From a virus, in IMG/VR virus record IMGVR_UViG_3300010342_001360, positions 1-25,576 of that record: a stretch of DNA of 25,576 nt. The stretch is one strand, 5' to 3'. The translations under genes and the position numbers were made by a program. The notes below the pieces were generated by a model, which was not told the origin of the DNA, did no database searches, and saw only the letters and a program-made list of their open reading frames with translations. Every line of letters begins with the position of its first letter. Within the stretch, counting starts at the first letter, position 1. Positions 6,106 to 25,477 of this stretch are shown one piece after another.

Positions 6106-6149
6106 CTCTACAATTACAAACAAACGATCTTTCATATTTTGATTTATAC

Positions 6150-6594
6150 GCCCCGTCCCACCGGCTACAAGAAAGGATGGCTCTATCATAATAGTGATCA
6201 TAAAGGGTAGATGCGCGGTGAAAGTCCGCGATGGGGTAGTCCTAAGGATACTCCTTCAGAAGGAGGTCCGAAGATGCCTGCCGACCAGAGCATGAGATGG
6301 TCCTCACCTATGAGCAAATAGGGGTTTTTTACGTTCTCGTTTTATCCTAAGAAAATGAGAGTACCGCTTCCACAGCGTGATAGGGGTCTGGCCACGAGAC
6401 TGATGCGGTGGTAGGGTTTTTACGTTTCTGATTTTTCAGCTTGGGGATTTTAAACCTTTCCCCTAAACAAAATCGGTGTACTGCAAGGTTCCGGCATATT
6501 GGACCTTTCGGCTAGCTTCAGTCAATGTAGGAATGGCATCCGTGAGCAAGAGCAACCAGCGCAAGGTTCTCGGGGGGGAAGATTAAACTTCCCC
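6150..6594 (+). ncRNA. Large ornate structured ncRNA candidate (~445 nt; GOLLD/ROOL-like context)
   Basis: GC-richer, no ORF, own promoter and terminator, many hairpins, and two repeated GGGTTTTTACGTT-hairpin-GTACYGC modules. Confidence 0.6.
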
Positions 6595-6605
6595 TTTTCT
6601 TTTTT
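6575..6605 (+). terminator. Intrinsic terminator
   Basis: GGGGAAG-ATTAAA-CTTCCCC followed by TTTTCTTTTTT. Confidence 0.75.
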
Positions 6606-6662
6606 ATCGTTCTTCGAATATTTGTCATAATCTAGGGCGTTTGCGAAGATATATAAACTAAA

Positions 6663-7292
6663 ATGTATATTTGCAAATGCGGGAGGAAATTTGAAAAACA
6701 AAATTCTTTAAATGCCCATTTTTCTCATTGTTTAATTCATAGAAATGGAAAAATTCCTATAAATCGTTTTAAGGGAAGGGAAAATTGGAATAAGGGGCTT
6801 AAAAAAGAAACTGATGAAAGAGTTCAAAAATATTCGAAATCATTAAAGGATTCTTTAAATAGTGGAAAGGTTATTCCGAGTTTTTTTGGGAAACATCATT
6901 CAAATAAAACCAAAGAAAAGCTTAGTTTAATTCAAAGCACTTCTCATAAAGGGGGATACTGCAAATGGATTCCATACCAAAAGGGGGATAAAATAATTTA
7001 TCTTCAAGGATCCTGGGAATTTAAATATGCCCAATATTTGGACTCATTAAATTTGAAATGGATTAAACCCGGGAACGGAGATTTAAAATATTCTTTTTTC
7101 TGGATGGATGACTTGGGAATTAAAAGAATTTATACCCCGGATTTTTATATCATAGATTATAATCAATATATTGAAATAAAAGGATATTGGAGAGAAAATG
7201 ATAGAATTAAAATGAAAAAAGTCCTTGAACAAAATAAAATATCTCTTCAAATTCTTGAAAAGAAAGATTTAAAAAATCTTAATTTATTGTAA
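6663..7292 (+). CDS. PD-(D/E)XK-type free-standing endonuclease with N-terminal Zn-finger-like and NUMOD3-like segments
   Basis: CKCG..HFSHC, FFGKHHSNKTKEKLS, SWE..YA, YTPDFYI...YIEIKGYW. Confidence 0.72.
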   Translation: MYICKCGRKFEKQNSLNAHFSHCLIHRNGKIPINRFKGRENWNKGLKKETDERVQKYSKSLKDSLNSGKVIPSFFGKHHSNKTKEKLSLIQSTSHKGGYCKWIPYQKGDKIIYLQGSWEFKYAQYLDSLNLKWIKPGNGDLKYSFFWMDDLGIKRIYTPDFYIIDYNQYIEIKGYWRENDRIKMKKVLEQNKISLQILEKKDLKNLNLL

Positions 7293-7294
7293 TC

Positions 7295-7381
7295 GCCCTC
7301 GTGATGGAAATGGGTAGACATACCAACCTCAAAAGTTGGTGCTTATAAAATAGCGTGTGGGCTCGAGTCCCACCGAGGGCA
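7295..7381 (+). tRNA. trnL: tRNA-Leu(CAA), T loop CTCGAGT
   Basis: Acceptor GCCCTCG/CGAGGGC, anticodon arm CCAAC-CTCAAAA-GTTGG, long variable arm. Confidence 0.9.
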
Positions 7382-7578
7382 CGACAGTGACAACAGGTTC
7401 CAGCCTGGTGCAAAATTGACTATAATAATAGGATGATGAGATTAATCTGGACGTATCATCCTTGCCACTGTTTCTTTTTATAACCAACATGTCCTTAATC
7501 TTTTAACCTACATTTAACAAAACTTATTTTCGTTTATAAGAAGATGAAGGGGACTTCAAAAACTGAATAATTGATTAA

Positions 7579-7613
7579 GAAGGGGCTATCGTCAATTTAG
7601 CCCCTTCTTTTTT
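7579..7613 (+). terminator. Intrinsic terminator
   Basis: GAAGGGGCT...AGCCCCTTC followed by TTTTTT. Confidence 0.75.
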
Positions 7614-7705
7614 ATTTTATGACATTTTGTCGATAAATAAGGATCGGCATAATTATCGGAAGATATATATTATTTAAGGGATATTTTTAATTAAAAAACA
7701 AAATT

Positions 7706-8080
7706 ATGAAAAAACCATTTTATTACTAGATTCATTCAAAACTTATCGTCATTACAAGACGAGATTTAGCCCCAGGAATTCAGGCTGTACAAGCTGCTCA
7801 TGCGGCAATTGATTTCCAGCATCAACATTCTTCTATTGCTCGAGAATGGAATATAAATTCCAATTATCTCATTTTCTTATCTGTACAAGACGAGCAAGAA
7901 CTCAAAAGATTTATTCAAAAATTTCAGATTTATGGTCTTAACCATACAGTCTTTGCTGAACCCGATTTAGATAATCAGGTTACTGCTGTTTGTGTTGAAC
8001 CATCTGAAAGAACTATGAAATTATGTTCTCATTTACCTTTGGCACTCCGTGAATTTAACGGGTCTTTAACGCAAGGGTAA
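7706..8080 (+). CDS. Pth2-superfamily (peptidyl-tRNA hydrolase-like) protein with in-frame TAG at codon 8 (missed by the ORF track)
   Basis: Translates as MKKPFYY*IHSKLIVITRRDLAPGIQAVQAAHAAIDF...YLIFLSV...FAEPDLDNQVTAVCVEP...LCSHLPLAL. TAG at 7727-7729. The V.R.DL..G..A.Q.AHA and EPDL...TAV motifs are intact. Confidence 0.8.
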
Positions 8081-8118
8081 TGAGATTTTTTGTATATTTA
8101 AATTAAAATTTTTGAACT

Positions 8119-8148
8119 ATGGAACACTAGATTATTAGACCGCCTTAA
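8119..8148 (+). CDS. Amber-interrupted micro-ORF MEH*IIRPP-stop (putative leader peptide)
   Basis: ATG GAA CAC TAG ATT ATT AGA CCG CCT TAA, downstream of a TATATTTA box (8093-8100) and an A/T-rich leader. Confidence 0.45.
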
Positions 8149-8150
8149 CC

Positions 8151-8222
8151 ATGAATTATTTTATTTAGACATTAAATGGACATAAAATATGGACATTTGG
8201 ACATCAATCAGGTCAACTTTAA
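8151..8222 (+). CDS. Amber-interrupted micro-ORF MNYFI*TLNGHKIWTFGHQSGQL
   Basis: ATG 2 nt after the previous stop, TAG at 8166-8168, internal repeat I*T..GH / IWTFGH. Confidence 0.4.
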
Positions 8223-8249
8223 TTTTTTAACTCAAATAAAATAATAATC

Positions 8250-8582
8250 ATGGAAACTTTAACTATCAATAAAATTGCAATTAACGCTTTAAAAAGCGAT
8301 ATTAAAAAACTTTCTGAAGAGCAGAAATTTTTAAGAAATCAGAGAAAGACAGTTTACATCAAAGGGGAAAGAACAATGGAACCTTGGGTAGCTGCCATGA
8401 AACACAGGGCTAACAGAGAAAAATTAAGAATCATGTTTGCTGCTTATGGTTTAATGAGAGGAAAATCTTTAGAACAAATTGAACTAAAGTCATCTAAGGA
8501 AAACTCTATTAAAAACTTTCTACCTCAGGTAAGTAAAACTATTGAAACTTATAACAAATTATCAGATGAGTTACAAAAGTGA
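8250..8582 (+). CDS. Hypothetical phage protein (110 aa, basic, helical)
   Basis: Full ORF with A-rich leader. No function recognised. Confidence 0.8.
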   Translation: METLTINKIAINALKSDIKKLSEEQKFLRNQRKTVYIKGERTMEPWVAAMKHRANREKLRIMFAAYGLMRGKSLEQIELKSSKENSIKNFLPQVSKTIETYNKLSDELQK

Positions 8583-8730
8583 TTTCAAAAAAAGGGAGCT
8601 CGAACAAGAGCTTGCAGAGGAAGAGCGAGAAATCCTTGAAGAAGAAAAAAAGTTAACTACGGAAGAACTTCGTAAAAAAAGGCGTCAGGAGATAGAGGAT
8701 GAAATACGGAGAGAACAGGCCGGATGGTAA
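8566..8730 (+). CDS. Small highly charged hypothetical protein (54 aa)
   Basis: ATG 8566 overlaps the upstream gene end. E/K/R-rich, coiled-coil-like. Confidence 0.6.
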   Translation: MSYKSDFKKRELEQELAEEEREILEEEKKLTTEELRKKRRQEIEDEIRREQAGW

Positions 8731-8736
8731 TAACAA

Positions 8737-8775
8737 GCATGGACATTATCATAGACACGATGTCCATGCTATTTT
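8737..8775 (+). terminator. Terminator-like or processing hairpin directly before the suppressor tRNA
   Basis: GCATGGACAT/ATGTCCATGC 10-bp stem followed by TATTTT. Confidence 0.5.
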
Positions 8776-8847
8776 GGTTGTGTAGTTCAGTGGTTAGAAC
8801 AGAGGTCTCTAAAACCTTATACGCGGGTTCGACCCCCGCCGCAATCA
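8776..8847 (+). tRNA. Amber suppressor tRNA (anticodon CUA)
   Basis: Acceptor GGTTGTG/CGCAATC plus A73, D arm GTTC-AGTGGTTA-GAAC, anticodon arm GAGGT-CT-CTA-AA-ACCTT (anticodon 8809-8811), T arm GCGGG-TTCGACC-CCCGC. Confidence 0.92.
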
Positions 8848-8913
8848 CAATTTTTTATTAAAACTTCAATAAAATAAGCCATACAAAGAATAAATAAAAT
8901 AAATAAACTACGT

Positions 8914-9261
8914 ATGGAATATTTAACTACTGAAACTTTCAAAGAGAAAGTTTTTAATTTTGAAAGCGAATCCGAATTTAAGGTAACAAAACCCACAATA
9001 ATTGATTTTTATGCTGATTGGTGCGGCCCTTGCAAGACTATTGCTCCAATATTAGAAGATCTATCTAAAGAATTTGAAGGAAAAGTAGACATCTATAAAG
9101 TAAATGTAGATGAGAGTCATGAATTAGCTGGTGCATTTAATATTAGAAGCATACCTGCCCTTCTTTTTGTTCCTATAGAAGGTAAAGCTCAAATGATGGC
9201 AGGGGCCCTTCCTAAAACTTCTTTTAAGAAAGCCATTAAAGATATTTTTCACATTGAATAA
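8914..9261 (+). CDS. trxA: Thioredoxin
   Basis: IDFYADWCGPCK, KVNVDE, IRSIPAL. Confidence 0.95.
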   Translation: MEYLTTETFKEKVFNFESESEFKVTKPTIIDFYADWCGPCKTIAPILEDLSKEFEGKVDIYKVNVDESHELAGAFNIRSIPALLFVPIEGKAQMMAGALPKTSFKKAIKDIFHIE

Positions 9262-9467
9262 TGTCTATCTTTGAAAAAATATTAAAACCCTCTGGATCAG
9301 AAAAATTCTGGCAGGAGATGTCTTTAGAAGATCGAAGAAGACTTCTTGAATCCCATAATCTTTGGCAGGGGGCTAACACATATTTTTGGCAATATTTGCC
9401 TAAGGAAATTAGGGATCGAGTTGAAGAAGAATATCAAAAACTCGTCGATAAGTCCAGATTTGAATAA
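9261..9467 (+). CDS. Hypothetical protein
   Basis: TAATG overlap with thioredoxin. Confidence 0.7.
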   Translation: MSIFEKILKPSGSEKFWQEMSLEDRRRLLESHNLWQGANTYFWQYLPKEIRDRVEEEYQKLVDKSRFE

Positions 9468-9917: not shown

Positions 9918-11618
9918 ATGGCTAAGTACAACACCAAGAGGGAAATTTCTCTCGCAGACCAGAAGAGCGGAGTTGAAAAGACTACTACTCACCAGGGCGG
10001 ACAGGGTTACACCCAGCGTCCAGAAGCGGAACTTATCGGTATCCTCGCAACGGGTATGGGTAACAACTTTTACGAAAAGGAAACTGAACGTGAAAAGAGG
10101 TTCCGTGATGTTCTCGACAAGGTTGCAAAGGTTAACAAGCTTTTCGCAGCTAAGGCACTTATTTACGCTCGTACTATTTTTGGACAGCGTTCCGTTACTC
10201 ACTTCGGTGCAGTTGAAATGATTCCTCACCTTCAGGGGGACCCACTTGCTAAGAAGTTCTTCACCAAGAGGGACAAGAAAGCAGAACGTGGCGGAATTAT
10301 CTGGAGGCTTGACGATATGGCTGAAATCCTTGCAGCATATTTTGCAAAGAATGGCCAGGAAGCATCTCTTCCTAACTCCCTCAAGAAGGGATTCAAGGAT
10401 GCTCTTGAACATGCTGACACTTACGAACTTGCTAAGTACCAGATGAAGAATAGGGGTGTATCACTTGTTGACATTGTCAACCTTGTTCACCCAGTTGAAA
10501 CTCCTAAGAATGGTTTCATCTATATTCCTGAACAGGATTACCTCAAGGCAACTGCTGGAACAAAGTTCGTTGGCAAGGAATACCAGAAGAACGAAAAGGG
10601 CGAAGTCCAGGTTCCTGCACTCCGTGCTCTCGTACTCGGAATTCTTAAGCAGTTCAACACCGTTGAAGATAAGAATACTGAAGCTGGTAAGGTTGTAGCT
10701 GAAAAGGTTAAGAGCGGAGAAATCACTCAGGAACAGGCAGCAGCTCAGCTTAACGAAGCTAAGACTGAAAACTACAAGGAACTCATCGAAACCAAGAAGA
10801 TTGGTTACCTTGCACTTCTTCGTAACATCAGGAATATTCTTAAGACTAACGATACAGTTCTCCTTGACAAGGCGTGCGAACTTCTTGTCGACCAGAATTT
10901 CATCCGCAAGTCACTTGTTTGGCCTCACCAGATTGACCTTGCTCTCGAAGTAATGTTAATCGAATTCAATGGTCGTCAGCTCCAGAAGATTGCAGCAGCT
11001 CTCGATGAAGCTTATGAAAAGTCAATCCCTAACCTTTCTCAGCTTCTTCCAGAAGGAAAGACTGCAGTTGTCTTTGACACTTCAGGTTCTATGGAAGGCG
11101 GATGGGGCGGTGGAATCAAGATTGATGGCAAGCCAAGCAACTCTCGCCCAGTTGATAAGGCAGCTCTTATCGCAGCAACTTTTGCTAAGGGTACCGGCGG
11201 AGACGTCTACCATTTCGGCTCAACTTGCTCGGTTATTAAGGGATGGAATCCAAATGATGCCATCAACACTCTTAAGAAGAGTTTTGCTCGTCATATCGGA
11301 GAATGCGGTCATGGTACTGTTTATTCATCTATTCTTCCTGAACTCGAAAGAGTTGGAGGTGGATACGACAGGATTCTTATCATCACCGACGAACAGGGTG
11401 CAGATTCTTTCGAAGATACCTACAAGAGGTATTCTGGAAAGTATGGAACTCCATACGTTTACTTCATTAACATTGTAGGCTACGGCCCAACAATGGCTAA
11501 GGCTGGAAACAAGGTATTCCGTCTCTTCGGATACTCTGCAGACATCTATGAAAAGATACCTCACTTGGAAATGAACATCAACGAAGTTATCGATGCAATT
11601 AACCGTATCGAAATCTAA
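9918..11618 (+). CDS. rsr: Ro60/Rsr-like RNA-binding protein (TROVE domain + vWA domain)
   Basis: TTHQGGQGY, FYE, KALIYAR...RSVTH, YELAKYQ, DIVNLVHP, YLALLRNIRNI, MIDAS DTSGS, ILIITDEQ, FGYS. Confidence 0.92.
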   Translation: MAKYNTKREISLADQKSGVEKTTTHQGGQGYTQRPEAELIGILATGMGNNFYEKETEREKRFRDVLDKVAKVNKLFAAKALIYARTIFGQRSVTHFGAVEMIPHLQGDPLAKKFFTKRDKKAERGGIIWRLDDMAEILAAYFAKNGQEASLPNSLKKGFKDALEHADTYELAKYQMKNRGVSLVDIVNLVHPVETPKNGFIYIPEQDYLKATAGTKFVGKEYQKNEKGEVQVPALRALVLGILKQFNTVEDKNTEAGKVVAEKVKSGEITQEQAAAQLNEAKTENYKELIETKKIGYLALLRNIRNILKTNDTVLLDKACELLVDQNFIRKSLVWPHQIDLALEVMLIEFNGRQLQKIAAALDEAYEKSIPNLSQLLPEGKTAVVFDTSGSMEGGWGGGIKIDGKPSNSRPVDKAALIAATFAKGTGGDVYHFGSTCSVIKGWNPNDAINTLKKSFARHIGECGHGTVYSSILPELERVGGGYDRILIITDEQGADSFEDTYKRYSGKYGTPYVYFINIVGYGPTMAKAGNKVFRLFGYSADIYEKIPHLEMNINEVIDAINRIEI

Positions 11619-12386: not shown

Positions 12387-12626
12387 ATGAGTAAAAACGG
12401 AACAGTAAAATTTTTCAACGAGACTAAAGGTTTTGGATTCATCAAAGAAACCGGAACTGGAAAAGAATACTTTGTTCATATTTCTGGCGTTAAGGAAAAC
12501 ACCTTACGAGAAAATGATGAAGTAGAATTTGATCTCGTAGAAGGAAAGAAAGGTTTAAATGCAGTTAATGTCGTACAAAGAAACCGGAACTGGAAAAGAA
12601 TACTTTGTTCATATTTCTGGCGTTAA
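12387..12626 (+). CDS. csp: Cold-shock protein (CSD) with C-terminus altered by tandem duplication
   Basis: GTVKFFNETKGFGFI, YFVHISG, VEFDLVEGKKGLNAVNV. The native end VLV-stop is at 12850. Confidence 0.85.
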   Translation: MSKNGTVKFFNETKGFGFIKETGTGKEYFVHISGVKENTLRENDEVEFDLVEGKKGLNAVNVVQRNRNWKRILCSYFWR

Positions 12627-12841
12627 GGAAAACACCTTACGAGAAAATGATGAAGTAGAATTTGATCTCGTAGAAGGAAAGAAAGGTTTAAATGCAGTTA
12701 ATGTCGTACAAAGAAACCGGAACTGGAAAAGAATACTTTGTTCATATTTCTGGCGTTAAGGAAAACACCTTACGAGAAAATGATGAAGTAGAATTTGATC
12801 TCGTAGAAGGAAAGAAAGGTTTAAATGCAGTTAATGTCGTA
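12443..12841 (+). repeat. Three identical 133-bp tandem copies of the csp 3' two-thirds
   Basis: Units begin CAAAGAAACCGG at 12443, 12576 and 12709. Confidence 0.95.
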
Positions 12842-24846: not shown

Positions 24847-25068
24847 ATGGAAACTCCGAGATTTCGATTGACAAGAGATGTTTCGGTGAATGAATGCGAA
24901 TGGTTACACCGGAACTTTAAAGAAGGTGAAATTGTTTTTGAATACCCTCTTTATATTTCTAGTTACATGAACAACAAAGGAATTATTTGTTCTGAAAAAG
25001 ATTCAGAAAGTCCTTTTTTTGAACTGCCAAAAGATGCTCTTAAAAAGGTAAACCCAGGAGATGTATAA
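24847..25068 (+). CDS. Hypothetical protein
   Basis: Start placed at ATG 24847. Confidence 0.65.
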   Translation: METPRFRLTRDVSVNECEWLHRNFKEGEIVFEYPLYISSYMNNKGIICSEKDSESPFFELPKDALKKVNPGDV

Positions 25069-25477
25069 AGAACAAGCACCCAAACAGGTCATTATTATTC
25101 GTAAAGACCTTAATATGAGAAAGGGCAAGATGATTGCCCAGGGAGCTCATGCTTCAATGAAAGCTATTTTTGATCTCATGTGGAATCAAAATCATTGGTG
25201 GACAGAAAACACCATTAAATGTCTTTGTGTAAAACCAGATTCCCCTCTTGATCTCTGGGTAAATGGTATTTTCAAAAAAATTGTCGTTGGCGCAGAAAAT
25301 CTAAATGAAATGGTGGAGGCTTACAATGAAGCAAAAAAACAAGGAATTATTTGTTCATTGATTGAAGATGCTGGTTTAACAGAATTTGGAGGAAAAGTTA
25401 CTATAACAGCTGTAGCAATTGGCCCGGATCTTCCAGAAAAAATAGATCCAATAACTAGTAAATTTAATTTGTTATAA
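25061..25477 (+). CDS. pth2: Peptidyl-tRNA hydrolase, Pth2 family
   Basis: KQVIIIRKDLNMRKGKMIAQGAHAS, KKIVV, IEDAGLTEF, TAVAIGP. Confidence 0.92.
   Translation: MYKEQAPKQVIIIRKDLNMRKGKMIAQGAHASMKAIFDLMWNQNHWWTENTIKCLCVKPDSPLDLWVNGIFKKIVVGAENLNEMVEAYNEAKKQGIICSLIEDAGLTEFGGKVTITAVAIGPDLPEKIDPITSKFNLL

What the first reader, a model, noticed from the sequence alone, without database searches (positions are those of the whole stretch)
7706..8847. Candidate amber-gated module: suppressor tRNA(CUA) clustered with three TAG-interrupted ORFs in a standard-code genome
Seen: three consecutive ORFs carry an early in-frame TAG. These are the Pth2-like gene (codon 8, 7727), MEH*IIRPP (codon 4, 8128) and MNYFI*T... 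(codon 6, 8166). A well-formed tRNA with anticodon CUA follows about 600 nt later. No other gene in the window is broken by TAG, and of roughly 40 CDSs only one HNH gene ends at TAG, so this is not whole-genome code-15 recoding. Established: phage amber suppressors are known mainly from fully recoded phages, and Pth enzymes recycle peptidyl-tRNA. Inference: a local translational switch in which suppressor availability, charging or RF1 competition licenses a tRNA-recycling hydrolase and the downstream 110-aa gene. A feedback loop is possible if the hydrolase acts on drop-off peptidyl-tRNA(CUA). I know of no described system of this form.
Basis: partly seen in the sequence, partly recalled or inferred. 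Interest (0 to 1): 0.95.

Follow-up and report, generated by a model that had tools for sequence, protein, structure and literature searches.

The report
Stop-reading tRNA gates phage genes
A large wastewater phage with the normal genetic code carries its own UAG-reading tRNA beside a tRNA-hydrolase-like gene and a tiny leader gene that each hold an early UAG stop; this layout is kept in about a hundred related phage loci and looks like a natural tRNA-operated switch that I did not find described in papers.

Summary
The core observation is real and conserved. The PTH2-like gene (7706-8080) has TAG as codon 8 and no usable start after it. Every homologous phage locus I read (44 + 41) begins ATG, 1-7 codons, then TAG; one has TAA. 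A well-formed tRNA(CUA) (8776-8848) lies nearby, as in 45 of 54 distinct relatives.

The second ORF, MEH*IIRPP (8119-8148), is also conserved: 48 distinct versions, none on the reverse strands. It is a leader ending in R/K-x-P-P or IRGPT, which resembles arrest peptides. Its stop codon abuts a helix that pairs with the start region of the 110-aa gene. The third ORF (MNYFI*) is not a gene; it is the 5' strand of that helix.

Relatives use the standard code. In one 675-kb relative, both in-frame stops are TAA, the suppressor tRNA is UUA, and the leader ends in TAG.

Best reading (about 0.6): the phage tRNA must read UAG for the hydrolase-like protein to be made. On the leader, read-through places a stalled ribosome where it melts the helix and switches on the downstream gene. 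Nothing here is experimental.

This scan has noted the same module before on other DNA. I found no published description. Cultured carrier: Tenacibaculum phage pT24.

The parts
7706..8080 (+). PTH2-like gene (124 codons), with an in-frame TAG as codon 8 at 7727-7729.
   Evidence: Pfam PTH2 E=3e-8, 34.3 bits against a cut-off of 23, residues 12-102. Also matches phrog_1866. The AlphaFold model has pLDDT 90.7, and its best PDB matches are archaeal and human Pth2, TM 0.7-0.78. The TAG is conserved in all homologous loci read.
7727..7729 (+). Gate codon TAG of the PTH2-like gene, followed by ATT.
   Evidence: 54 TAG and 1 TAA among 55 distinct loci, always 15-22 codons upstream of the QAVQxxHA motif and 1-7 codons after an in-frame ATG. 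The next base is A or G in nearly all loci.
8119..8148 (+). Leader mini-ORF MEH-TAG-IIRPP-TAA, with TAG at 8128-8130.
   Evidence: 48 distinct versions on the + strand of 116 loci and none on the reverse strands. They end in R/K-x-P-P or IRGPT. The relative that uses TAA in its PTH2-like gene also uses TAA in its leader.
8149..8166 (+). 5' strand of a long-range RNA helix, starting one base after the leader stop.
   Evidence: Pairs with 8234-8253 in the minimum-free-energy fold. Window duplex -16.4 kcal/mol, z = -6.7 against a shuffled partner.
8175..8204 (+). Three direct copies of (A)TGGACAT in the loop of the helix.
   Evidence: TGGACA at 8177, 8190 and 8198. Relatives carry the same kind of GACA repeat, usually with an inverted copy that forms a hairpin.
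8234..8253 (+). 3' strand of the helix. It covers the A-rich region upstream of the 110-aa gene and its AUG (8250-8252).
   Evidence: The same arrangement is seen in 19 of 22 loci with different sequences, including compensatory changes.
8250..8582 (+). 110-aa gene downstream of the leader ('cargo'). Function unknown.
   Evidence: No Pfam or PHROG match. Homologues follow the leader in L007, L008 and L010 at 67-89% identity. Other clades have unrelated small genes at this position.
8566..8730 (+). Possible 54-aa Glu/Lys-rich ORF that overlaps the end of the 110-aa gene.
   Evidence: Read directly from the sequence. No Pfam match. Whether it belongs to the module was not tested.
8737..8769 (+). 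GACA repeat-hairpin GCATGGACAT-N13-ATGTCCATGC, followed by TATTTTGG, just 5' of the tRNA.
   Evidence: The same composite motif lies directly 5' of tRNA(CUA) in L008 and L010. A related palindrome lies before the candidate CUA tRNA of mycobacteriophage Catera.
8776..8848 (+). tRNA with anticodon CUA (8809-8811). Anticodon loop C-U-CUA-A-A, discriminator A, no encoded CCA.
   Evidence: Found by ARAGORN. Rfam tRNA score 67.5 bits, E=6e-13, full length. A tRNA(CUA) lies within 3 kb of the PTH2-like gene in 45 of 54 distinct TAG loci.

Best explanation
This is a small translational switch operated by the phage's own amber suppressor tRNA, in a phage that otherwise reads TAG as stop.

Step 1. The tRNA(CUA) is made and charged. 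This is inferred, and the amino acid is unknown.

Step 2. Ribosomes on the PTH2-like mRNA start at ATG 7706. They reach UAG at codon 8 and make the full protein only if the suppressor beats release factor 1. The comparative evidence is strong, but there is no direct proof.

Step 3. Ribosomes on the leader (8119) normally stop at UAG, codon 4. That is too far upstream to touch the helix that hides the start of the 110-aa gene. When the UAG is read through, they translate I-I-R-P-P and pause at the Pro-Pro-stop end. There the ribosome covers the 5' strand of the helix (8149-8166) and frees the AUG at 8250. This step is a structure-based inference, of the ermC/secM type.

The module therefore turns 'suppressor tRNA active' into two outputs: a PTH2-fold enzyme and a small protein of unknown function. 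The hydrolase-like protein most likely acts on the suppressor tRNA itself, or on products of its use, which would give feedback. This last point is speculation. It rests only on the fact that the gene and the tRNA stay adjacent even in lineages without the in-frame stop.
For: 1. The gate codon is conserved. All 44 loci from the first search and all 41 further loci have ATG, 1-7 codons, then a stop in frame before the domain. Among 55 distinct loci that passed a strict motif filter, 54 have TAG and 1 has TAA; none has a sense codon. Protein identity to the window falls as low as 45%.

2. The codon after the stop is not a start codon in most loci. It is ATT, ATA, GTT, GTA, CTT, ACT, ACA, AGC or AAA.

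3. tRNA(CUA) lies within the fetched flank in 45 of 54 distinct TAG loci. In most clades it is 110-270 nt upstream of the gene; in the window clade it is about 1 kb downstream.

4. The stop and the anticodon change together. In G006 (675 kb) the PTH2-like gene reads ATG AAA GAA ACA TAA ATT. Its leader reads ATG AAA GAC ACA TAA ... CCA TAG. The 40 tRNAs I read there include a UUA and no CUA. The related G007 keeps TAG and has tRNA(CUA).

5. The genomes use the standard code. The major capsid frames of five large relatives are open for 554-623 aa with no stops. Reading TAG as sense adds only 1-2% of ORF coverage, less than reading TGA as sense does. TAG ends 7 of 159 and 43 of 439 long ORFs.

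6. The leader is conserved: 48 distinct versions against 0 on the reverse strands. It always lies 40-130 nt upstream of a small gene.

7. The helix is conserved. Cognate duplexes average -10.5 kcal/mol against -5.2 for non-cognate pairs. Mean z is -3.7 against a shuffled partner, and 19 of 22 loci show it, with compensatory changes.

8. The protein has the PTH2 fold.

9. RAPP and RGPP ends are known arrest motifs (PMC10951233, PMC12992588).
Against: - There is no experimental evidence. Contigs from RNA libraries cover the module, but they do not prove transcription and say nothing about read-through.
- The amino acid carried by the tRNA is unknown. Nearest-neighbour comparison with other phage tRNAs gave no isotype.
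- Some TAG-bearing genomes lack a clear tRNA(CUA). In G004 (complete, 57 tRNAs) there is only a weak tRNA-like element with a CUCUAAAAC loop, 23.7 bits, just upstream of the gene. In G010 I found a UUA tRNA but no CUA, though I did not read all its tRNAs.
- In mycobacteriophages Catera and Myrna a GTG with good Shine-Dalgarno spacing follows the TAG directly, so read-through may not be needed there.
- A working suppressor would also extend the phage's own TAG-terminated genes.
- The window's leader ends in IIRPP, not the proven RAPP or RGPP.
- The helix is AU-rich, and the fold of the whole window region scores only z = -1.7.
- The genes behind the leader belong to at least four unrelated families, so the output of the switch is unclear.
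- The catalytic Lys of archaeal Pth2 is not conserved in this family.
Confidence: 0.6

Rival explanations
1. The switch is real, but its purpose is the reverse. The suppressor tRNA exists for some wider job, such as reading through host or phage TAG stops or countering a host defence that attacks tRNAs or translation. The TAG-bearing hydrolase-like gene is then a sensor that limits it, by hydrolysing aminoacyl- or peptidyl-tRNA(CUA) once suppression rises (negative feedback).
For: The PTH2-like gene stays next to a suppressor-type tRNA even where it has no in-frame stop: in L172 it is followed 7 nt later by a type-II tRNA(UUA). The window also has a second, canonical PTH2 without TAG at 25061-25477, so the TAG-bearing copy is probably specialised. 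Published jumbo phage genomes report suppressor tRNAs whose targets could not be found (PMC5852040; PMC6102473).
Against: No wider set of TAG targets is visible. Only these two frames in the window need read-through, and late genes of relatives carry no in-frame TAG. The substrate of the enzyme is unknown.
Confidence: 0.2
2. The TAG is not read through. ATG-x-TAG is a tiny upstream ORF, and the PTH2-like protein starts just after it, by re-initiation or at a non-standard start codon. The tRNA(CUA) sits nearby for another reason.
For: In mycobacteriophages Catera (ATG TAG GTG) and Myrna (GTG TAG GTG), the annotated start is the GTG right after the TAG, and the Shine-Dalgarno spacing favours it. 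ATT, the commonest codon after TAG here, is a rare but known bacterial start codon; this is from my general knowledge.
Against: The codon after the stop varies: ATT, ATA, GTT, GTA, CTT, ACT, ACA, AGC, AAA. Both in-frame stops switch to TAA exactly where the tRNA anticodon is UUA. The leader repeats the same ATG-x-TAG-ATT layout and would make no sense as a start site.
Confidence: 0.12
3. The phage is at an early or partial stage of genome-wide TAG recoding (code 15), and these are simply its first recoded genes.
For: The genome has low GC (34.5%) and TAG stops are rare (1 of 40), which matches the proposed path to recoding in 10.1101/2021.08.26.457843. The public protein collection translates many of these genes with Q at the TAG position.
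Against: The same two sites are kept across relatives down to 45% identity and across several phage lineages, with no synonymous CAA or CAG at the site and no spread to other genes. A transitional state should not be this stable or this specific.
Confidence: 0.05
4. The gene is broken (a pseudogene), or the TAGs are assembly errors.
For: A single window read alone cannot exclude this.
Against: The protein is under clear purifying selection, with invariant D20, Q29, H32, E85, P86 and D87. The TAG is present in independent contigs from many samples and in contigs of three RNA-library studies.
Confidence: 0.01

Closest known systems
Stop-codon-recoded phages with phage-encoded suppressor tRNAs (TAG read as Gln, 'code 15'; crAss-like and Lak phages; 10.1101/2021.08.26.457843, PMC9523058)
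   Same: The phage carries a tRNA(CUA). In-frame TAG is thought to hold back translation of certain genes until the tRNA is available.
   Different: In recoded phages, many genes, mostly late and lysis genes, carry TAG, and standard-code gene calls fall apart. Here the code is standard. TAG still ends genes, only two short frames next to the tRNA carry it, and it always lies in the first few codons.
prfB (release factor 2) autoregulation through an in-frame UGA
   Same: An early in-frame stop codon in a translation-factor gene acts as a sensor of how well that stop codon is being read.
   Different: prfB escapes by a +1 frameshift and senses a release factor. Here escape would be by a dedicated tRNA, with no change of frame.
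Leader-peptide arrest and translational attenuation (ermC, secM-secA; RAPP/RGPP arrest peptides ApdA, ApdP, ApcA; PMC10951233, PMC12992588, PMC7897499)
   Same: A short upstream ORF ends in a Pro-rich arrest-like motif. It sits directly in front of an RNA helix that hides the start of the next gene.
   Different: In the known cases, stalling is relieved or induced by a drug, by the secretion machinery or by an amino acid. Here the ribosome can reach the arrest site only if a stop codon inside the leader is read through. The window's motif is IIRPP, not RAPP or RGPP, and stalling is untested.
trp/his/pheL attenuation, which senses charged tRNA through ribosome position on a leader
   Same: The supply of one particular charged tRNA decides how far the ribosome travels on a leader, and so which RNA structure forms.
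   Different: Those leaders use runs of sense codons and a terminator/antiterminator pair. Here there is one stop codon, a suppressor tRNA and, as predicted, a helix that masks the start.
Engineered amber-codon switches in leader peptides for genetic code expansion (PMC6412442, section 6)
   Same: A TAG placed in a leader peptide makes downstream expression depend on a suppressor tRNA.
   Different: Those are man-made circuits that use orthogonal tRNA/synthetase pairs and unnatural amino acids. This one would be a natural counterpart.
'Orphan' suppressor tRNAs and PTH2 genes reported in jumbo phages (XacN1 PMC5852040; Atu_ph07 PMC6102473; survey PMC7824862)
   Same: Large standard-code phages with many tRNAs, a suppressor tRNA and a PTH2-type hydrolase.
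   Different: Those papers list the tRNA and the hydrolase separately. The XacN1 paper states that no target genes for the suppressor could be identified. XacN1's own homologue has no in-frame stop.

Membership tests
PTH2 peptidyl-tRNA hydrolase (Pfam PF01981) | Sequence match above the curated cut-off | tested here: met
   34.3 bits against a cut-off of 23, residues 12-102 on profile positions 2-102 of 115. A profile of the family finds archaeal Pth2 chains at E=1e-9.
PTH2 peptidyl-tRNA hydrolase (Pfam PF01981) | PTH2 alpha/beta fold | tested here: met
   Model pLDDT 90.7. Foldseek matches 2zv3, 3erj, 1q7s, 1wn2 and 1xty at TM 0.66-0.78 and probability 1.00.
PTH2 peptidyl-tRNA hydrolase (Pfam PF01981) | Catalytic residues: the Lys of the G-K motif and the Asp of the D-A-G motif. 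These residues are recalled from the archaeal Pth2 literature, not checked here. | tested here: inconclusive
   In the profile alignment the Asp position is an invariant Glu (E85, in E-P-D). The Lys position is variable (P-G-x-Q). The family has its own invariant set: D20, Q29, H32, E85, P86, D87, T93, A94.
PTH2 peptidyl-tRNA hydrolase (Pfam PF01981) | Hydrolysis of peptidyl-tRNA | not testable with these tools
   Needs an enzyme assay.
Amber suppressor tRNA | Complete cloverleaf with anticodon CUA | tested here: met
   ARAGORN and Rfam 67.5 bits over the full model. The loop is C32 U33 C U A A37 A38.
Amber suppressor tRNA | It actually decodes UAG | tested here: inconclusive
   Indirect support only. 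Both in-frame stops are TAA in the one relative whose suppressor is UUA, and its leader then ends in TAG. Charging and decoding need experiments.
Code-15 (TAG-recoded) phage | Many genes, especially late genes, hold in-frame TAG; standard-code ORF coverage is low; TAG is not used as a stop | tested here: not met
   Capsid genes of five relatives have no stops. ORF coverage is 0.82-0.84 under code 11 and rises by only 0.01-0.02 with TAG read as sense. TAG ends 4-10% of long ORFs. In the window, only the two module frames need TAG read-through.
RAPP-like ribosome arrest peptides | C-terminal RAPP or RGPP core | tested here: inconclusive
   The window has IIRPP. Four relatives have exact RAPP; others have RPP, KPP, KAPP, KVPP or IRGPT. 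The family-level motif is R/K-x(0-1)-P-P next to the stop.
RAPP-like ribosome arrest peptides | Encoded just upstream of the regulated gene, with an RNA structure that masks its start | tested here: met
   The leader lies 40-130 nt upstream of a small gene in every locus that has one. A helix joins the leader stop to the next gene's start in 19 of 22 loci.
RAPP-like ribosome arrest peptides | Ribosome stalling shown by toeprint or reporter | not testable with these tools
   Needs in vitro translation or reporters.

The most novel reading that the evidence does not exclude
This is a natural, self-contained 'orthogonal' translation switch. A private suppressor tRNA serves as the key for just two locked frames. 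One frame encodes a PTH2-fold enzyme that acts back on that same tRNA and so sets the level of suppression. The other is an arrest-peptide leader that converts read-through into expression of an interchangeable small effector gene. The module moves between very different large phages (Bacteroidota-type, mycobacterial, high-GC) and can change its stop codon and anticodon together.
Probability: 0.3. Interest if true: 0.9.

Novelty: new variant of a known kind. Interest (0 to 1): 0.8.

Why it matters
- **Orphan suppressor tRNAs.** Papers on large standard-code phages have reported suppressor tRNAs without finding their targets; the XacN1 paper says so outright. This module would give them a concrete job.
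- **A new use of an in-frame stop.** It would be a natural case of gene control by a stop codon that a dedicated tRNA overrides. That principle is so far known mainly from engineered genetic-code-expansion circuits and from genome-wide recoded phages.
- **Annotation.** Gene callers either truncate these genes, as for pT24 gp293, or silently translate TAG as Gln.
- **Testability.** The short leader, helix and tRNA unit could be tested directly, and it might serve as a compact natural part for synthetic biology.

Tried and rejected
- **DNA search of phage records.** blastn of 7000-9300 against GenBank phage records found no match.
- **Genome context.** The 'genome' held for this window is only the window itself, so context came from relatives.
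- **TAG-containing frame at 6103-6453.** I first suspected a recoded gene. The translation looks non-protein, and the stretch is GC-rich and probably RNA. Rfam found nothing there, even at E up to 1.
- **tRNA isotype.** Nearest-neighbour comparison with 300 other phage tRNAs gave scattered, weak answers.
- **Fold of the whole window region 8081-8262.** This gave only z = -1.7. The helix became convincing only when I compared cognate and non-cognate strand pairs across loci.
- **Genes behind the leader.** A Pfam scan of ten of them found nothing.
- **XacN1 homologue.** It has no in-frame stop and no nearby tRNA, so it does not show the module.
- **DNA run X2.** Laying this run gave no contigs because of a filter. 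That says nothing either way.
- **Literature.** Searches for suppressor tRNA together with peptidyl-tRNA hydrolase, leader peptide or attenuation in phages found no description of this arrangement.
- **Not used.** I did not run complex prediction, because no protein-protein claim is made.
Full report
**What the window is**

The 25.6-kb window is all that is held of this genome. It is a fragment of a large T4-like phage:
- gp30.3, NAD synthase, NAPRTase and dCMP deaminase genes;
- many homing endonucleases;
- a Ro60/TROVE protein and thioredoxin.

GC content is 34.5% and there are no Shine-Dalgarno sequences before the genes. The window holds 12 tRNA genes. Near-identical DNA occurs in wastewater, activated-sludge, anaerobic-digester and soil metagenomes.

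**Checking the observation**

The PTH2-like frame starts at ATG 7706. TAG is codon 8 (7727-7729), and the frame then stays open to 8080. No in-frame ATG, GTG or TTG follows the TAG until codon 104, after nearly all of the PTH2 match, so the gene is missing from the table-11 ORF list. It appears as a 124-codon ORF when TAG is read as sense.

The mini-ORFs at 8119 and 8151 and the tRNA(CUA) at 8776-8848 are also present. The tRNA is the best-scoring tRNA of the window (67.5 bits). Of 40 plausible ORFs, 28 end in TAA, 11 in TGA and 1 in TAG. A weak-HNH ORF at 2964-3533 also ends in TAG.

**The TAG in the hydrolase-like gene is a conserved feature**

A search of IMG/VR with the protein gave 45 loci. 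In all 44 that include the gene start, the gene begins ATG, 1-6 codons, TAG, then ATT, GTT, GTA or CTT, in frame with the domain.

A profile search found 310 relatives. Among the 80 kept, 41 were new, and all show the same layout: 40 with TAG and one with TAA.

A strict recount over distinct sequences gave 54 TAG and 1 TAA, 15-22 codons before the QAVQxxHA motif. No locus has a sense codon at the site.

Many proteins in the public collection begin MKQ or MTQ. In the one entry I compared with its locus DNA (P0005, which reads like the L008 gene), the Q stands for TAG read as Gln. More distant homologues such as P0117 and P0086 translate under table 11 and have no in-frame stop.

**The tRNA travels with the gene**

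ARAGORN finds a tRNA(CUA) within 3 kb in 38 of the first 45 loci. Most of the misses are loci truncated by contig ends. Counting distinct loci, 45 of 54 have one.

In most clades the tRNA starts 110-270 nt upstream of the gene. In the window's clade it lies about 1 kb downstream.

The tRNA sequences differ greatly between loci. They share the C-U-CUA-A-A loop and, mostly, an A discriminator. I could not assign an amino acid.

**The genomes use the standard code**

- The gp23-type capsid genes of five large relatives (133-429 kb) are open for 554-623 aa with no stops.
- I fetched two relatives in full: a 133-kb fragment and a complete 363-kb genome. ORFs of 100 aa or more cover 82-84% under table 11. 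Reading TAG as sense adds only 1-2%, less than reading TGA as sense adds. TAG ends 7 of 159 and 43 of 439 long ORFs.

So this is not code 15.

**Stop codon and anticodon change together**

One relative, G006 (675 kb), has TAA at the gate of the PTH2-like gene: ATG AAA GAA ACA TAA ATT. Its leader also uses TAA: ATG AAA GAC ACA TAA ATT TTC ACA CGA GGT TCA CCA AGT CCA TAG. That leader now ends in TAG.

The 40 tRNAs I read in that genome include a UUA suppressor and no CUA. The related G007 keeps TAG and has a tRNA(CUA).

Two sites and the tRNA have switched together. This is the strongest evidence that the tRNA decodes these stops, but it is a single lineage.

**The second 'ORF' is a conserved leader**

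Downstream of the PTH2-like gene, nearly every locus has a mini-ORF of the form M, 1-5 residues, TAG, a few residues, then R/K-x-P-P-stop or IRGPT. Examples are MEH*IIRPP (window), MKH*INRPP, MK*IRRKPP, MM*IYRAPP, MN*IKAPP and MK*IIRGPT.

A pattern search found 48 distinct versions on the + strands of 116 loci and none on their reverse strands. RAPP and RGPP ends are established ribosome-arrest motifs (PMC10951233, PMC12992588). The window's IIRPP is related but not identical.

A small gene of 76-144 aa always follows, 40-130 nt downstream. These genes fall into at least four unrelated families with no Pfam match.

**A helix links the leader to the next gene**

Folding the stretch from the leader to the next start gave the same architecture in almost every locus. 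A strand that starts at or just after the leader's stop codon pairs with the A-rich region just before the next gene's AUG.

In the window, 8149-8166 pairs with 8234-8253, which includes the AUG at 8250.

The helix sequences differ between clades, with compensatory changes:
- UUAAGUUU/AAACUUAA against UUAAAUUU/AAAUUUAA;
- UUUCUUA/UAAGAAA against UUUUUUA/UAAAAAA.

Cognate strand pairs average -10.5 kcal/mol against -5.2 for non-cognate pairs. Mean z against a shuffled partner is -3.7 (window -6.7), and 19 of 22 loci show the helix.

**Geometry of the proposed switch (inference)**

A ribosome that terminates at the leader's TAG (8128-8130) should cover mRNA only to about 8140. A ribosome paused with CCT (8143-8145) in the P site and TAA in the A site should cover to about 8158. 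That would open the part of the helix that pairs with the AUG of the 110-aa gene.

**Other conserved elements**

The loop of the helix holds repeats of an 8-mer ending in GACA, such as ATGGACAT, CTTGGACA or CATAGACA. These are often arranged as 8-mer, 4-5 nt, 8-mer, 3 nt, then the inverted 8-mer.

In the window clade this composite lies directly 5' of the tRNA (8737-8769), and three direct copies lie in the loop. Its role is unknown.

**The protein**

The model is confident (pLDDT 90.7), and its best structural matches are Pth2 enzymes.

The family has its own invariant residues. The acidic catalytic position is kept as Glu, while the Lys position of archaeal Pth2 is not conserved. I cannot say what it hydrolyses.

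The window also has a canonical PTH2 without TAG at 25061-25477.

In a high-GC relative without an in-frame stop, the gene is followed 7 nt later by a type-II tRNA(UUA). This suggests a functional tie between enzyme and suppressor that goes beyond gating.

**Cultured phages**

Tenacibaculum phage pT24 (NC_049383) has ATG AAA TAG ATA at the start of a PTH2-like gene that carries a C-terminal extension. GenBank annotates the gene from an internal ATG. The best-scoring of its four tRNAs has anticodon CUA and lies 2.6 kb upstream. The genome paper mentions only '4 tRNAs' (PMC5502841).

Cluster C mycobacteriophages (206 records) have a homologue annotated as peptidyl tRNA hydrolase. Its annotated GTG start is directly preceded by ATG TAG in Catera and GTG TAG in Myrna. 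A tRNA that ARAGORN reads as CUA lies 130-250 nt downstream, although GenBank calls these Arg and Ser. There the GTG may serve as the start, so that case is ambiguous.

**Expression**

Contigs from three RNA-library studies cover the gene start, the leader and the 110-aa gene, with both TAGs unchanged. This shows that the TAGs are real. It does not prove transcription.

**Literature and earlier notes**

- Papers describe genome-wide recoding with suppressor tRNAs (10.1101/2021.08.26.457843).
- Others report orphan suppressor tRNAs in standard-code jumbo phages whose targets were not found (PMC5852040, PMC6102473).
- A survey notes PTH2 genes in jumbo phages (PMC7824862).
- Engineered amber switches in leader peptides exist (PMC6412442).

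I found no paper linking these into the module seen here.

Earlier notes of this scan describe the same module on other DNA. I tested their main claims again here and do not count them as independent support.

**Verdict**

The most likely mechanism is suppressor-tRNA-gated translation, coupled to an arrest-leader and helix switch. It is inferred entirely from comparative sequence data.

Noticed in passing
window 6100-6600: A GC-rich stretch of about 500 nt that looks structured. It has no credible ORF and no Rfam match even at E up to 1. It lies between a SiaC-family gene and a homing-endonuclease gene. It may be an undescribed RNA; the phage also encodes a Ro60/TROVE protein, whose partners are small structured RNAs.
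   Followed up: partly
window 9918-11618: A 566-aa TROVE-domain (Ro60-like) RNA-binding protein (Pfam E=4e-7; phrog_850 E=4e-28). It lies about 1 kb downstream of the tRNA(CUA), after a thioredoxin gene.
   Followed up: no
window 25061-25477: A second, canonical PTH2 gene (Pfam E=2e-28) with a normal start and no in-frame stop. The phage therefore has two PTH2-fold proteins, and only one is gated.
   Followed up: partly
window 1427-1602, 2874-2925, 5397-5462: Three weak tRNA-like Rfam matches (29-34 bits) that ARAGORN does not call. One is 176 nt long and may hold an insertion.
   Followed up: no
window 12387-12626 and 12559-12759: Two overlapping ORFs in different frames, both matching the cold-shock domain. 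They may be tandem csp genes or one gene with a frame change.
   Followed up: no
window 4918-5340 and 5671-6048: Two SiaC-family regulatory phosphoprotein homologues (Pfam E about 1e-27 each), inside the tRNA array of a phage.
   Followed up: no
L012:3601-3670, L013:2512-2584, L029:3663-3735, L173:3366-3439: In many relatives a tRNA-like gene lies between the PTH2-like gene and the leader. It either has an abnormal anticodon loop (ARAGORN reports 2- or 4-base 'anticodons') or is a tRNA-Cys. The window lacks it.
   Followed up: no
L021:2896-2961 (G004, complete 363-kb genome): This genome keeps TAG in the gene and the leader, but none of its 57 tRNAs has a canonical CUA anticodon. Only a degenerate tRNA-like element (23.7 bits) with a CUCUAAAAC loop sits just upstream of the gene.
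   Followed up: partly
L170 (mycobacteriophage Catera) 2483-2863 and 3087-3187; L175 (Myrna) 1974-2537: Cluster C mycobacteriophages have a homologue whose annotated GTG start is directly preceded by ATG TAG or GTG TAG. A nearby tRNA can be read as CUA. In Catera a TGGACA palindrome lies just before that tRNA, as in the window.
   Followed up: partly
L174 (Tenacibaculum phage pT24, NC_049383) about 2477-3409; tRNA at record 191520-191593: This cultured phage carries the TAG-gated gene, fused to a further domain of about 160 aa. GenBank annotates it from an internal ATG. One of its four tRNAs is CUA.
   Followed up: partly
L172:3001-3432: A high-GC (60%) homologue without an in-frame stop, followed 7 nt later by a 90-nt type-II tRNA with anticodon UUA.
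   Followed up: partly
L164 (G007:8784-8856): The 425-kb relative with tRNA(CUA) also has a tRNA with anticodon UCA, which would read UGA.
   Followed up: no
window 7655-7680, 6645-6662, 785-800, 3855-3872, 8089-8105: AT-rich motifs of the type GAAGATATATA or TATATAGAATA recur 20-45 nt before several genes, and TTTGTATATTTAAAT lies before the leader. They may be phage promoters. The leader's motif is invariant across the window clade.
   Followed up: no
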